A program made the position numbers. Of a stretch of DNA of 64,000 bases, positions 18,001 to 36,000 are shown piece by piece. Each line of letters starts with the position of its first letter. The first letter of the stretch is position 1. Source of the stretch: Syntrophales bacterium (GTDB lineage Bacteria; Desulfobacterota; Syntrophia; Syntrophales; UBA2210); assembly GCA_963666365.2 (NCBI GenBank), contig CAXXNF010000002.1:1152001-1216000 (forward strand), in the 5' to 3' direction.

Positions 18001-21000
18001 GCACCCGTTGTCGACAGCGCCGAAACAGCCATCTCACCTTCTGAACATATCACTGACACGGTTTCCTGATCATCATCATCGCTGACCACCACAAATTCAA
18101 ACCCCGTGCCCCGGACGCCGGCGACGGCGGTTCGTGAAGATACCTCAAAAATGGAATCCCCACCGATAAATTTCTTTACCATTGCATTAAGCTTACCGAC
18201 CGCCATGAAAAACATACCCTGGCGACTCCCGTCTTGAACAGTAAATTCCTTCACCTCGAATCTGGAATTAGGGGAAAGGATGACGGTACTTTCATCATTG
18301 AAAAGCAACGCAGTCGACGAATCCTTTTCTGTGATGATCACATCTTTCACTTCAATGGGCGAGTTAATGACAGGCCTTGTCCGCATACCCTCTCTTTGCA
18401 GGACAACATCCCCCGCAACAGCAGTAAAATGACCAACCGCTGCAGCCAGAAGCGGCGCAGGAACAAATAGTTGAAAAATCACAAGGCATGCGATGAATAA
18501 ATTTATTTTTTTTAACATCATAGCGCCTCCTTCATGACCTTTTGCGCATTTGCCAAGGTTTTATTCCGTCGTAACTTCCTTTATGCATTCACCGCTGGCA
18601 AGAAAATCTATCATCTCCGGAGAATAATATTGCCAATCCCGGTGTATCGGATCAACCTGCCGAGGATCAAAATGTGTGTGTCGCGATTCGGCACATCCGT
18701 AAAGAACAAAAATCACCGCTACAAATATAAGATTTATTTTCACTGCCCTCTTCCTCGGCGCAATAACATAGGACAACATCATGCAAACCCCATATGCCCG
18801 TTCCCAAAGGTCAAATCACCAATTGCGGTTGCTCGTTAGGATACACAGCTCTCCACCACACAACATGGTTCTTACCCGTACCCCGCATGCAATTGGCCGA
18901 TTGTCCAATGTCAGCACTACGTGCATCAGTGCTGCCTGTGAATGTAACCTCGATTCCTCATGATATCAAGGAGAAAAAGCGTTCCTGTCGTGCTGTCAAT
19001 AATTATGCGCACTGTCCCCGACCTTAATTCCGGGGACAGTATACTTAATTCAGTGTTTCCCTTTCGGCCCCGGTTTTTGTTTCCGAACTACACGGTCAAT
19101 AACCTTCTCGACGTAATCAACAAATTGACTGCTTCCCAACGGCCTGCCTGTCCTCTCGTGTAAACGTAAGCGCTGCCCATCTTTATCTTGCACATCCAGC
19201 TTCAGGAACGAATGCCAGTCAGGTACAAGAGCAATTAACGGTTCAACTTTGATTAAATTGTCATCCTCTCCCCGTATGTGAGCACGAGCACTGCTCCACT
19301 TGTAATCCGCAGGCCTCGTCACAAGGCCCGCCCGAACGGGGTTCAACTCGATATATCGAGCAGCAGCAAGGAGATGCAGCTCGTCCATTGGGAAAGAAAA
19401 AAAGCGCTCCTGCCACAAGTGCCCGCGCCACTCGTGGCTGAAATTTATCATCCGCGTATATTGCCGGTGTGCTTCGCCAATCGCAAAGCGTAAGCTGTCA
19501 GACCGTGAGGGAACCGCAATGAGATGTACATGGTTCGGCATAAGACAGTATGCCCAGATTTCAACACTGTGCTGTGTGCATGACTGCCTCATAATGTTGA
19601 TATACTGCCGATAATCATTGTCAGAAAAAAAGTCTGCAGTCGCCGATTTCCCCGCTGAGTGATGTGATGGGGAACATCAGGAACAACAATCCGAGCCATT
19701 CGTCCCACTAATTCAGTGCGTCTCCTTTCAACTTCTGACTGTCAATAATTATGTATACTGTCCCCGGAATTTGGAAAGTATACTGTCCCCGGAATTAAGA
19801 CGAAATTACGAGCCCCCAGAATTACGCTGAATTATCCCGGAATTACCCAGAATTATCGCCCCCAAAATTACTCTTATCTCGGGATTCACTTTCATCGGAA
19901 TATTCTCTTTTTTTAAACAATTCTTTCATGCATATTTTTAACGCACCTCCACCTATATTTGCTTTTGAAATAGCAGTTATCATGATAAGCAAGAAAAAAA
20001 ATATAGCAATTAATGGTATTGAAATATATTGAGGTAAGTAACTGCTTATAAAAATAATTAGTTTTCTGAATATCCAGACAATAAACCAAAAAGTAGGAAA
20101 TATAAGTAGTGCAACAAATACACCCGCTACAATTTTAACTATGCTGCTCAATTTTTCTTTTTTTGTGGGCATATTATAACCTATTTACAAGGAGATGATT
20201 TATTTTCATTGATATCTTCTTCGATTTTTTGAAAATAAAATAATAAAGGATCAAATGTTGTCCTTACTAATAAATCAGTCATACCTTGCCCAAGGCTGTT
20301 TGCTTTTACTTCCAAATAATCTCTTTCAGCATCAGAATATTCGTAGTGCCAGTCATACCAATTTGGTCCATGTTTTTTCCATTGCAGCCCCTCCGGATCC
20401 ACTCCGTTCACTGGATCGTTCATGCAGTATCCGTAGAGGTCGGTGCTGCCGCCGGCGAAGAGGATGGGGTCTTTGGCGGTCCAGCGGCCGGTGTCGGGAT
20501 CGTAGTCGCGGTGGCCGAATCTGATGAGGCTGGTGTCGCGGTCGTGGAGCCCCCCGGCAAAGCCGAAGGGAATCGCAAGTGTCGGGTTGCTGTCTGTGAT
20601 GATGGTGCCGAAACTGTCGTAGATGGTTTCTTTTACTATATTTCCGCTCTCGTCGGCAACTGTTTTGAGCGAGCCGACCTGATCATAGGCCAAATAGTAG
20701 GACCCGCCGCTTGTGGTCATGGCATAGGGCATTCTGCCGTCAGCATATTCAAAGCGCATGAGCAGGGCGTCGCTTCCATCATAGACGGCAAGCAGCCTGA
20801 TCTTAATTCCGGGGACAGTATACTTAATTCAGTGTTTCCCTTTCGGCCCCGGTTTTTGTTTCCGAACTACACGGTCAATAACCTTCTCGACGTAATCAAC
20901 AAATTGACTGCTTCCCAACGGCCTGCCTGTCCTCTCGTGTAAACGTAAGCGCTGCCCATCTTTATCTTGCACATCCAGCTTCAGGAACGAATGCCAGTCA

Positions 21001-33000: not shown

Positions 33001-36000
33001 TTTCCTGCACACCCGCGACAGTGTTGATAAGCGAAATATTATTTTCACACCGTTCGCCGTTCCCCTTCGAGATAAATGATGGATTGACAGGATCAAGTTT
33101 GTGATGCATCGACAGCGTCCATCCTTCGGCGATGGTGGCTACATGGTCTCGATGAACCATTGCATCTCTGTTCTTCCACAGGACGACTTCAGATCTGCCC
33201 AGTATGGGATATGGTTCCACGCCTGCAAAGCCAAAGGCCTGTGCAAGATCCATCCGTGCCCCAGCAAACCAGATATCGTATACGAAGCCTGTTTGAATGC
33301 GTACGGGAACAGCGCCTTCTACAGGGTTCCCCAGAAAATCCATCCCGTCCCACTCAACCTGTGTTACCTGATAGGGCAGCGGATCCAAGGTGCTCTCGAA
33401 GGTTCTCCCCGCCACCGTGACCTGAACCATAATGCGTTTCAGGCTTGCCGGCACAGTCTCGCCGCTGACAGGAACGGTAATTACCGTTTTGTAACTATGC
33501 ACACGGTTGCTTGCATAGTGAAGGGTGATATCTGTTCCCGCAACATGAATATCTTCATGAAATGTGCGGCTTCGTTCCTCTACAAAAGAATTGAGGGCGG
33601 TAGTGCAAGTTTCTTCTTTCACTTTTTCCTGATCGACGAGGGGTTCCACCTCCGGATTGGGAGCTGTCGCATCAGCGGGCATTGAATAGGGCCAATTGTA
33701 ATCGACAGGCGTAAAATGTGACACTGCTGCACGCCAGAACGTTTCATTCGGCGGATAGTGAAGCGGATCATTCAAGCCCTGCACTTCATCGGCAACAAGG
33801 CCATCGCCGTTCAGATCATCCGCCGTTTCGTCACCGTCGGCATCGAGGGCATCGGCAATCCCGTCGCCGTCGGTGTCGAGCAGTCTCACAACGACGCCGT
33901 TTTCGGCGGGGACCCAGACACCACGGTCTCTATTGTAGAATCCAACGGGGACAACGGCGCCGACGGGGAAGCCAAGAAAATTGTCAATCCAGGTGACTAC
34001 CGGTTTTTCGAACCGCACCCGCTCGATCCCGTCTACTTCCAGCTCGACGCAGTACGTATAGGCGGAAGTGGGCGGGAGCACGGAGGGCATGGAATCTTCG
34101 GTCGTATATTCCGTGGCCCGCGCAGTGATGGTGGTAAGTTCAAGAATGTCGTTGCCGGCTTCGTCCGTCATGTAGGCGCGGTTGTCACCGGTAAAGACGA
34201 TCGAGCAGGCGCGGCTGCCGAACTCGTCGATTACTACGCTGCTTTGGTGCGCTACTGCCGTTGTGGGATTTCCATCAAAGGTAAAGGTGGTGGAGCGGGG
34301 ATCCCGTGCAATCATCCGGATGGGTTCAGCCGCGACGACATCGTTCCAGGGAACAAAGACCTTTCGCTGCGCACTGCAGAATTCCTCTTTATAATATGTG
34401 AGAACCACCGTTCCCCCACCCTCGACGGGAACACTGAAAAAGCCGGTATCGTCGGTATAGGCAGTTCCATATTCGGGGTGGCTATAAATTGTGACGGCAA
34501 CACCCGAAAGAGGTGAATCATCATCGGCGACGACCATCCCCCGCACGATCGAAAAGCGCCGGGAATCATATCTATCCAGCGTGGCATCGGCAGGGACCAG
34601 CTCCTGATATCGTGCGCCGAAGGAACCCTCGGGGAGGACTTCCGGGGTTCCCTCGACCACGATTACGGCTCGTGCACGTGCCGAGCCGTGGGGGCCGCAT
34701 GCAGTAATGCAATACGTGGTGGTATGTGCGGGGGTGACAAGACAAGAACCGGAGGTGGATACCGCGCCGATGCCGTTGTCGATAACTACGAACGCGGCGC
34801 CTTCCGCGCTCCAGGAGAGCGTGGCTGCACCGTCTTTGTGAATCACCGATGGCGTCGCTGCGATTGTCACGGTGGGAGGTGATGCTTGTGATTCCTGCGT
34901 GATAACGACCGTAAGAACGGCGCCCGGCTTGCCATCAAGTGCCACCGTAATTGTGTTGTCATCGATAAGATCAATTGTTTCTTCGATCGTGTCGGTATGG
35001 CCTTTAAAATCTCGTGGAGTAAATATCGGAATGCCATTCACATCGATACGCGCACTCGAAACGGCATGCTTTTTATTTCCATCGCCATTATAAACCGTAA
35101 GGCGTCCCGCGCCGGCCGCTGCAGAAAATGCATCCACCGCAACGGCGGGCTTCCCTTTACCCCTGGCGTAGACTTTCGGCCCAAAGACCGCGGTGACATC
35201 CGCAAAGGAAACAGTGTGTATACACATAAGAACCACCACAAATACTCCAGTCAGAACGATCCTTTTCATGATTCCCTCCTTCAAAGCAGCAATTCATTGC
35301 GTGCGGGCGGCGGGATCTTCCTTCACTTCAGCAGGCGCCATACATATGCCGGCGCCTCAGGGGTCCATGCCCCGTCGCCGTTAAATGGATTTATTGCGGT
35401 TTGTGGTGAGGATAGAGGTTGAGGATTGCTCTGATGTGGACTCTGCAATAAGGTTCGGACACTGAAAAAAAATAAACGTTTTTATAGTAGCGCCTTATAA
35501 ATTCAAGCGCATACCACCGAAACCACGAATCGAAAGCAGTTAATGATGTAAGGCTGCATAGTACCTCAAAAGGCAATGAAATTTAATACTGAATTACTAC
35601 GGTAAAAATTGCGCTCATTCCAGGTAGTTCAACCCCTGGGAATTCCGGGGACAGTATACTTAATTACTGACAGCCGGCAATTAAAAGGAGAAGTAATGTA
35701 ATTAAAGGACTGGCAGACCGTTGGGAAGCAATCAGTTTATAGATAATGTTGAAAAACTGTTTTACCGTATGGTTCGCAGACATAAGCCTGGGCCGAAAGG
35801 AAAAAATCAGAATTAAGTATACTGTCCCCGGAATTATAGTCCCCGGAATTATACCCTGTTGCGCTAGTACTGGATGCCGCCGGAGTCACCGCTTTTCTTA
35901 ACCGTCATGCCGAAATCATCGAAGAACTGATCGTTCGCGGCATTGGAATCGTAAAAGGCATGGACGCCGATTTCGGCGGGTCTCTCCGTGCCGAAACTCC

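What a model noticed while it worked through the whole genome (the two positions that open the first line are those of the whole stretch)
18998..35836. REP-associated HUH transposase (RAYT) and its REPs punctuate an Rhs toxin-tip/immunity cassette array; orphan cores star [...]
The teneurin-like Rhs gene g02278 is followed by low-GC immunity-like genes and two orphan tip cassettes; each cassette is closed by a 97-99% identical RAYT copy (four copies, one split by IS66) bounded by GGGGACAGTATAC inverted REPs, and both truncated orphan Rhs cores begin within about 10 nt of a REP end. RAYT genes are strongly enriched just downstream of such Rhs genes in other genomes, suggesting RAYT/REP-linked capture or shuffling of toxin tips.
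Evidence so far: Self-BLAST and gene map; junction sequences. In relatives a RAYT lies within 3 kb downstream of the Rhs core in 14 of 50 loci (13 co-oriented), other transposases/integrases in 0 of 50, RAYT in 0 of 67 control loci. G190 shows core-tip-immunity-REP-RAYT-REP-orphan core with the core again abutting the REP. A second Rhs locus here (C1:727.8-731.2 kb) is also flanked by RAYT genes. Paper searches 36, 42; bioRxiv 2024.07.17.603846 passages call RAYT single-copy and do not link it to Rhs.
(Added by a program. Inside this text positions count along the whole contig: contig position 1,152,001 is position 1 of the stretch shown here. "Call 12" and the like, gene names such as g00115 and contig names such as C1 are that model's own, and its searches are not shown. 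The text may have been shortened before it was handed on; [...] marks where a part breaks off. The agent that wrote the report below was given it as the finding of a first reader that could run no searches.)

Follow-up and report, generated by a model that had tools for sequence, protein, structure and literature searches.

The report
Transposon ends joining toxin cassettes
A little-studied single-strand DNA transposon sits exactly at the seams between spare toxin-immunity cassettes behind a bacterial Rhs toxin gene, here and in several unrelated bacteria, suggesting that its ends make some of the joints by which such toxin arrays are built.

Summary
The anatomy is real. A teneurin-like Rhs gene is followed by three tip/immunity pairs and four ~99% identical Y1-HUH transposase units. 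Both orphan cores start 2-6 nt from a repeat end.

The repeats are not REPs. They are non-palindromic 25-bp GGGGWSAS terminal inverted repeats, so the element is a TIRtron (TIRYT). It is mobile (six 99% copies dispersed in G014) and leaves a scar: 60 of 230 TIRs carry a tandem stub starting 1-6 nt outside the end, against 1-3% in controls.

A class-2 Y1 gene lies within 3 kb downstream of Rhs cores in 26 of 151 loci, about 10-fold enriched, 25 co-oriented and scattered on the tree. TIR ends abut orphan starts in three phyla. In G014, 14 of 14 orphan modules begin with a TIR-type end.

Best reading: TIR ends made the non-homologous joints of these cassettes, while core homology swaps the tips. 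Whether this captures new tips or only trims old ones is untested.

The parts
35641..35850 (.). Mini-TIRtron (MITE-like, 195 bp between two TIRs, holds a remnant of a Y1 3' end) plus one TIR stub, about 360 bp upstream of the Rhs start
28991..35284 (-). Teneurin-like Rhs protein, 2097 aa (TTR, NHL, YD shell, Rhs core ending near 29390, Gly/Ala-rich hydrophobic tip0 28991-29389)
28624..28971 (-). imm0, 115-aa low-GC membrane protein; tip0 and imm0 homologues lie together in L076
27838..28612 (-). TIRtron unit A: doubled left TIR 12 nt after the imm0 stop, Y1 ORF 27851-28510, truncated right TIR
27021..27837 (-). TIRtron unit B: 780-nt tandem copy starting 5 nt outside the left TIR; intact Y1 ORF 27071-27730 (HVH, YxxxNP); right TIR plus 26-nt stub
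26493..26915 (-). 140-aa Cys-rich, probably secreted protein of unknown function, bounded by TIRs
26396..26420 (-). Lone TIR
26118..26291 (.). Copy of the upstream mini-element with a 21-nt deletion; its TIR plus 3 flank nt (same as at the upstream copy) is joined to orphan core 1
24496..26112 (-). Orphan core 1 (1206 nt, 98.8% to main core) plus tip1
24138..24506 (-). imm1, 122-aa membrane protein; tip1 and imm1 homologues lie together in L246 and L087; a TIR stub starts 3 nt after the stop
20805..24137 (-). TIRtron unit C (three left TIRs/stubs, Y1 gene interrupted, right TIR 20805-20829)
21009..23529 (-). IS66 (tnpA/B/C), 8-bp target duplication; 8 identical copies in the genome
20181..20799 (-). 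Orphan core 2 (about 412 nt, 99.5%) plus tip2, starting 2-6 nt from unit C's right TIR
19843..20172 (-). imm2, 109-aa membrane protein whose last codons are TIR stubs
19776..19870 (-). Array of short degenerate TIR-end stubs
19026..19773 (-). TIRtron unit D, Y1 gene frameshifted
18998..19019 (-). Degenerate left-type TIR closing the array

Best explanation
The element is a mobile TIRtron. Its Y1-HUH enzyme nicks DNA a few nt outside the TIR and joins that end to other DNA (inferred from scars; the cleavage itself is not shown). Abortive rounds with host fill-in leave outer-end stubs, up to a near-whole-element duplication (A/B). Behind Rhs genes these TIR ends made the non-homologous joints of the cassettes: immunity-3'|TIR and TIR|truncated core. 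Tip exchange itself runs through homologous recombination in the 0.4-1.2 kb core (established for Rhs; not tested here). So in a subset of loci the TIR end supplies the 'illegitimate' joint of C-terminal displacement, or trims a duplicated Rhs to an orphan. The 99% identical units also give each cassette a second homology arm. The partnership is recurrent and opportunistic, not a dedicated lineage.
For: Shown: orphan starts lie within about 16 nt of a TIR outer end at different core positions in G000 x2, G029 x2, G050, L085 (Planctomycetota), L313 (class of Reinekea) and probably L089. Orphan starts are fused to a TIRtron left end or 5' gene part in G014, G172, G000-C1/G001, L074, L155, L319. 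Median stop-to-orphan gap at 29 TIR-less joints is 120 nt, so chance abutting is unlikely. G014: 14 of 14 leader-core modules start with a TIR-type end (11 of the window's type, 3 of a second type); the 55 pairs of type-1 modules share at most 6 nt outside it; 13 of 13 genome-wide matches lie in Rhs arrays. Likewise 7 of 10 in G029, 6 of 7 in G356, 4 of 6 in G172. Stubs: 60 of 230 against 7 of 230, 36 of 3000 and 11 of 340. Mobility: six 98.8-99.8% copies with unrelated flanks. Enrichment: 26 of 151 loci in 519 kb against 6 in 1252 kb; low-GC control windows 0 of 111 against 21 of 158; N6-methyltransferase loci 1 of 68 against Rhs 5 of 31. An allelic tip-immunity pair sits both at the expression site and as an orphan in G014.
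Against: Only 1 of 23 multi-core loci in the phylum sample and 2 of 13 in the Gammaproteobacteria sample have a TIRtron part at an orphan start. 5 of 79 metagenomic TIR loci have an Rhs core within 4 kb. In G000, 41 of 58 TIR matches lie elsewhere, many just after ordinary stop codons; 1 of 10 in G359 is near Rhs. IS66 (3 of 8 copies) and other transposases or integrases (4 of 51 loci) also collect there. TIRtron parts that do not abut the orphan: G029 65 kb x2 (about 110 nt away), L081, L245, L316. No empty-site allele, circle or before/after strain pair was found. Order of events is not resolved.
Confidence: 0.5

Rival explanations
1. Passenger plus clean-up. Arrays are built by RecA and ordinary homology-facilitated illegitimate recombination. 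TIRtrons land in the dispensable Rhs tail, as IS66 does, and later TIR-adjacent deletions trim already duplicated cores. They play no part in acquiring tips.
For: Most arrays lack TIRs. IS66 is also enriched at Rhs tails. Orphan 1 looks like a duplicate of upstream mini-element plus Rhs with about 5 kb removed from the TIR end. No Rhs-specific Y1 clade.
Against: 25 of 26 are co-oriented with Rhs against 17 of 30 relative to the upstream ORF elsewhere (not the same measure). In G014 each of 11 type-1 modules has its own upstream joint exactly at the TIR, with site-specific stubs. Not enriched at other low-GC or restriction loci.
Confidence: 0.3
2. A dedicated, integron-like cassette loader: the TIR is an attachment site and the Y1 enzyme is domesticated to load Rhs tips.
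For: G014, G029, G356 and G172 concentrate one TIR type at Rhs loci. TIRs follow immunity stops within 3-12 nt in the window. A repeated TIR-leader-core module occurs in G014 and G172.
Against: Rhs-adjacent Y1s need 10 label changes among 38 rows (shuffled mean 12.8; 39 of 500 shuffles as low). The same TIR flanks housekeeping genes. Two of four window copies are broken. G014's six active-looking copies carry a different TIR variant and lie away from Rhs.
Confidence: 0.12
3. Portable homology only: one insertion, then RecA-driven duplication and exchange between the 99% identical units and cores, with no further HUH activity.
For: Units are near-identical; the single leader-core joint of G014 is shared by all modules.
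Against: Outer flanks differ at every copy and break within a few nt of the TIR; stubs repeat the local flank, so they arose in place.
Confidence: 0.06
4. Assembly artefact from collapsed or expanded repeats.
For: The region is repeat-rich; no contig spans it whole.
Against: Copies carry distinct SNPs and flanks. An X4 contig spans 19737-20799 and X1 contigs match the unique segments. The same geometry occurs in other genomes.
Confidence: 0.02

Closest known systems
TIRtron / TIRYT (Di Nocera 2013, PMC3733652; likened to subclass 2.1 by Quentin 2018, 10.1101/279083)
   Same: Y1-HUH gene closely flanked by TIRs fitting GGGGWSAS; TIRs also as singles and dimers elsewhere in the genome.
   Different: In the passages read, no mobility, end scars, cargo or Rhs link is described ('rhs' 0 hits in both). 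This protein has no Pfam HTH tail, while some Rhs-adjacent relatives do.
REP-associated RAYT / TnpA-REP (E. coli 4ER8; Bertels 2017, PMC5581495)
   Same: Same superfamily and YxxxNP motif; weak match to 4ER8 (E 4e-5); NF047646 77.7 bits, below the cut-off of 80.
   Different: Repeats are not GTAG hairpins; copies are recently duplicated, whereas RAYTs rarely are (group 1: 6.3%).
Rhs C-terminal displacement / orphan arrays by homology-facilitated illegitimate recombination (PMC5361080, PMC8125069)
   Same: Intact gene, then truncated cores with different tips and immunity genes.
   Different: Those passages name no enzyme for the non-homologous joint; PMC5361080 says no integrase is known for the Vibrio case. 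Here the joint coincides with an HUH element end.
TnpA-REP beside prochlorosin genes (10.1101/2020.03.09.984088)
   Same: The TIR-type transposase subgroup (their RAYT group 1 / subclass 2.1) co-localising with a hypervariable peptide locus; adjacent copies not phylogenetically linked.
   Different: There genes face each other, no inverted repeats were found, and diversity comes from indels; the authors withdrew the causal claim.
Bacterial teneurin-like proteins (PMC13018210)
   Same: TTR/NHL/YD-shell architecture, variable C-terminal toxin, adjacent immunity gene; one hydrophobic tip there damages membranes.
   Different: No mention of transposases, orphans or cassettes in the main text.
IS91/ISCR one-ended transposition; H-repeat (ISAs1) behind E. 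coli Rhs; integrons (all recalled, not from calls)
   Same: Fixed element end with variable far end; an IS behind Rhs; cassette arrays punctuated by a site.
   Different: Different enzymes (Y2-HUH, DDE, tyrosine recombinase); here both ends are the same TIR.

Membership tests
TIRtron/TIRYT | Y1-HUH transposase with HUH and catalytic Tyr | tested here: met
   PF01797 52.8 bits; HVH and YIELNP in the intact ORF
TIRtron/TIRYT | Gene flanked by terminal inverted repeats with GGGGWSAS | tested here: met
   25-bp TIRs with GGGGACAG at both ends
TIRtron/TIRYT | Assignment to Quentin subclass 2.1 (C-terminal extension or HTH) | tested here: inconclusive
   No HTH by Pfam; an 80-aa extension is present; the authors' profiles were not available
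REP/RAYT (REPtron) | Flanking repeat is a GTAG-tagged palindromic hairpin | tested here: not met
   No GTAG tag; TIR folds no better than shuffles in 5 of 6 cases
REP/RAYT (REPtron) | Gene single-copy, not self-duplicating | tested here: not met
   4 copies here; 6 dispersed 99% copies of a relative in G014
IS200/IS605 TnpA | IS200 equivalog profile and subterminal hairpins | tested here: not met
   NF033573 22.8 bits against cut-off 55; no hairpins
Bacterial teneurin-like Rhs polymorphic toxin | TTR + NHL + YD shell + Rhs core + variable tip | tested here: met
Bacterial teneurin-like Rhs polymorphic toxin | Cognate immunity gene linked to each tip | tested here: inconclusive
   tip0/imm0 and tip1/imm1 homologues co-occur in other genomes; tip2/imm2 had no homologue in the fetched loci
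Bacterial teneurin-like Rhs polymorphic toxin | Toxicity of the tip and its neutralisation | not testable with these tools
   needs expression assays
Integron-like dedicated cassette system | Site restricted to cassette arrays and a dedicated enzyme lineage | tested here: not met
   TIR mostly elsewhere in G000 and metagenomes; no clade; restriction met only in G014 and nearly in G029, G356, G172

The most novel reading that the evidence does not exclude
TIR-type HUH transposases are the missing enzyme for the illegitimate end of Rhs C-terminal displacement. A nick just outside the TIR primes rolling-circle-like strand displacement and strand transfer, so core homology on one side and a TIR on the other load new tip-immunity cassettes in integron-like order; lineages such as G014 have turned a TIR-leader-core module into the repeating unit of their toxin arrays.
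Probability: 0.3. Interest if true: 0.88.

Novelty: new variant of a known kind. Interest (0 to 1): 0.66.

Why it matters
Two open questions meet here: what TIR-associated Y1 transposases do, and what makes the non-homologous joint when Rhs toxins gain a new tip and keep the old immunity gene. The data give a defined substrate (a 25-bp TIR, a predicted nick 2-5 nt outside it), an intact candidate enzyme (unit B), and a scar that can be counted in genomes. Both questions become testable in vitro. Even if capture is wrong, the evidence that TIRtrons move and leave end stubs was not found in the papers searched.

Tried and rejected
- Classical REP reading: rejected.
- Target-site duplications at TIRtron ends: none seen in the elements printed.
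- TIR-borne promoter driving orphan immunity genes: many left ends of relatives show TTGAC with a plausible -10 (by eye), but the window scan is near chance (28 found, shuffles 19.1 +/- 4.4) and shows no such site at units A-D. Left as an idea.
- In-frame fusion of Y1 N-terminus to orphan cores: not in frame in G172 or G000-C1.
- Rhs-specific Y1 clade: not supported (38 of 46 rows kept after removing near-duplicates; one long-branch row, L249).
- Unit B as a recombinant of A and D: the SNPs need no recombination (three gametes only).
- Reads: no RNA holder listed. Contigs showed no circle or empty site; contigs drop rare variants.
- 140-aa ORF: no family; 2 homologues; Atlas hits are unnamed clusters with low recognition.
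- The first two-way motif scan (GGGGWSAS alone) is too noisy for counting.
- Earlier scan findings were not available.
- No structure or complex prediction was run.
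Full report
1. Observation. Read on the minus strand, the window holds, in order: a 195-bp mini-element (35641-35835); a 2097-aa teneurin-like Rhs gene (35284-28991); imm0; two tandem Y1 units A and B; a 140-aa ORF; a copy of the mini-element; orphan core 1 with tip1 and imm1; unit C split by IS66; orphan core 2 with tip2 and imm2; an array of short stubs; and frameshifted unit D. 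The cores are 98.8% and 99.5% identical to the main core. The immunity-like genes have GC 0.30-0.35 against 0.56 for the core. Homologues of tip0 with imm0 (L076) and tip1 with imm1 (L246, L087) lie together elsewhere. Contigs of runs X1 and X4 match the unique segments. Relatives found by the core are mostly Thermodesulfobacteriota/Deltaproteobacteria.

2. What the repeats are. They are 25-bp inverted termini containing GGGGACAG. They do not fold better than shuffles in 5 of 6 tests and have no GTAG tag. They fit the GGGGWSAS consensus of the TIRtrons of Di Nocera 2013 (PMC3733652, passages) and Quentin 2018 (10.1101/279083, passages and section 11). The protein has HVH and YxxxNP motifs, matches PF01797, scores just under the RAYT cut-off and far under the IS200 cut-off.

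3. The element is mobile and leaves a scar. G014 has six copies of a relative, 98.8-99.8% identical over 657 nt, with unrelated flanks. Of 230 distinct TIRs, 60 are preceded on the outer side by an exact tandem stub of 6-37 nt that begins mostly 1-6 nt outside the end. Controls: 7 of 230 on the inner side, 36 of 3000 random sites, 11 of 340 non-TIR GGGGACAS sites. Within a stub run the few flank letters are the local ones, so the stubs arose in place. The A/B duplication is the same pattern at 780 nt (starting 5 nt outside the left TIR); L124 has a 360-nt one. A fixed start with a variable end is what a nick outside the TIR, fill-in and re-ligation would leave; this step is inference. No target duplications were seen.

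4. Junctions in the window. Orphan core 1 follows the mini-element's TIR plus 3 nt that match the flank of the upstream copy. Orphan core 2 follows unit C's right TIR plus 3 nt shared with unit D's flank. Left TIRs or stubs begin 12, 3 and 0 nt from the three immunity stops. One low-depth contig of run X3 shows the upstream mini-element with the same 21-nt deletion as the orphan-1 copy, which hints at an origin in a related strain.

5. Enrichment. A class-2 Y1 gene or fragment lay within 3 kb downstream of an Rhs core end in three sets. Close homologues: 8 of 51 loci (55 returned; one duplicate and three without a core end dropped). Own phylum: 8 of 60 loci, picked from the 150 listed of 297 matches, 20 of them chosen for having several cores. 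Class of Reinekea: 10 of 40 loci in 36 genomes, picked from 79 matches; some of these are GTAG-REP types. Together 26 loci in 519 kb against 6 in 1252 kb of upstream and distal flank, 10.5-fold (p overstated, kin are not independent). 25 of 26 were co-oriented with Rhs; away from Rhs, 17 of 30 were co-oriented with the upstream ORF. Low-GC windows outside the Rhs tail had no Y1 nearby (0 of 111 against 21 of 158). N6-methyltransferase loci had one in 1 of 68 against 5 of 31 Rhs loci in the same 61 genomes (compared by eye, with 150 of 199 Y1 matches listed; Fisher p 0.011, or 0.03 without this locus). Rhs-adjacent Y1s are scattered on the tree (10 changes, shuffled mean 12.8), so the association arose many times.

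6. Junctions elsewhere. Orphan starts abut a TIR outer end at different core positions in G029 (two loci), G050, L085, L313 and probably L089. They are fused to a TIRtron left end or 5' gene part in G014, G172, G000-C1/G001 (one shared event), L074, L155 and L319. At 29 TIR-less joints the median gap from the upstream stop to the orphan is 120 nt. G014 is the extreme: three arrays of a different Rhs family, 14 of 14 leader-core modules starting with a TIR-type end, at most 6 nt shared outside the TIR among 55 pairs, about 11 distinct tips among 15, and one allelic tip-immunity pair both expressed and orphaned. All 13 genome-wide matches of that TIR are in these arrays; 7 of 10 in G029, 6 of 7 in G356 and 4 of 6 in G172 are at Rhs loci.

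7. Results against. TIRtron parts mark orphan starts in only 1 of 23 and 2 of 13 multi-core loci of the two broad samples. They lie between cassettes without abutting in G029 65 kb, L081, L245 and L316. 5 of 79 metagenomic TIR loci (two of them alike) have a core within 4 kb; the neighbours are mostly ordinary or TA genes. In this genome 41 of 58 TIR matches are elsewhere, in G359 9 of 10. Other transposases or integrases occur behind 4 of 51 cores, and 3 of 8 IS66 copies lie in Rhs tails. No circle or empty site was seen.

8. Mechanism. Shown: TIR outer ends coincide with non-homologous joints; TIRtrons multiply; stubs form in place. From established knowledge: tips exchange through core homology, and orphan arrays are explained by a homologous anchor plus an illegitimate joint with no enzyme named (PMC5361080 and PMC8125069, passages). 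Inferred: the Y1 enzyme makes that joint at the TIR, either while a new tip-immunity segment comes in or by trimming a duplicate afterwards, and selection for spare immunity genes keeps the product. I put 0.5 on a real but opportunistic part in array building, 0.3 on passenger with later trimming, 0.12 on a dedicated loader.

9. Literature. Searches: rhs + RAYT gave 1 paper (passages show no link); TIRtron/TIRYT terms listed 4 papers; searches listed none on a TIRYT-Rhs link by title or abstract start. The prochlorosin preprint (whole text) is the nearest precedent and withdrew its causal claim. The teneurin-like toxin paper (PMC13018210, passages) and a 2026 Stenotrophomonas Rhs preprint (passages) have no 'transpos' hit; the latter cites IS sites and Xer systems next to poly-immunity arrays in other genera. 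Bertels 2017 (passages) finds group 1 the most IS-like true RAYT group. The library lacks most subscription journals.

10. Verdict. Observation confirmed, naming corrected, interpretation partly supported. Both components are known; their recurrent joining geometry and the TIR-end scar were not found in print. New variant of a known kind, interest 0.66.

Noticed in passing
L106, L107, L110 (G014), L122, L193, L217: Long runs of TIR outer-end stubs of variable length flank TIRtrons and lone TIRs; a general family scar, independent of Rhs.
   Followed up: yes
G000 C1:200261/200317, C1:1274025/1274114, C2:599996/600051, C2:1356199/1356256: Head-to-head TIR dimers (REPIN-like) directly after stop codons of ordinary genes; about 28 TIR clusters outside the array.
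   Followed up: partly
G000 C2:1216511-1218028 (just beyond the window) and C2:110415-111767: Pairs of inward-facing TIRs enclose unrelated cargo (a 352-aa transposase-like ORF; a 256-aa ORF), like composite elements.
   Followed up: no
L063, L064, L071, L089:8198, L251, L316: Classical REP-like palindromes (GTAG and CGTC types; labels recalled) also sit right behind Rhs immunity genes or just before orphan cores.
   Followed up: no
L131, L167, L143, L170, L187: TIRs or TIR pairs repeated at 1-2 kb spacing around non-Rhs genes, resembling small cassette arrays.
   Followed up: no
window 26493-26915: TIR-bounded 140-aa Cys-rich secreted-looking protein with only 2 homologues; possible non-Rhs cargo.
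   Followed up: partly
window 18540-18720 (-): Small lipoprotein-like ORF of about 60 aa just beyond the last TIR.
   Followed up: no
window 35864-39621: Upstream of the Rhs gene: three type IV pilin-like N-methylation proteins, a 492-aa PilX-like protein (label recalled) and a PIN-Phd toxin-antitoxin pair.
   Followed up: no
window 43318-43541: Gly/Ser- or Pro-rich low-complexity repeat within a 683-aa ORF.
   Followed up: no
window 58500-62500: A 4-kb island of 27-36% GC, unrelated to this finding.
   Followed up: no
G000 C1:732457-734977 and C1:871973-874493: Identical IS66 copies also lie in the tails of two other Rhs loci.
   Followed up: yes
L263 before the orphan core: Tandem array of ~20-nt repeats directly before an orphan core start.
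   Followed up: no
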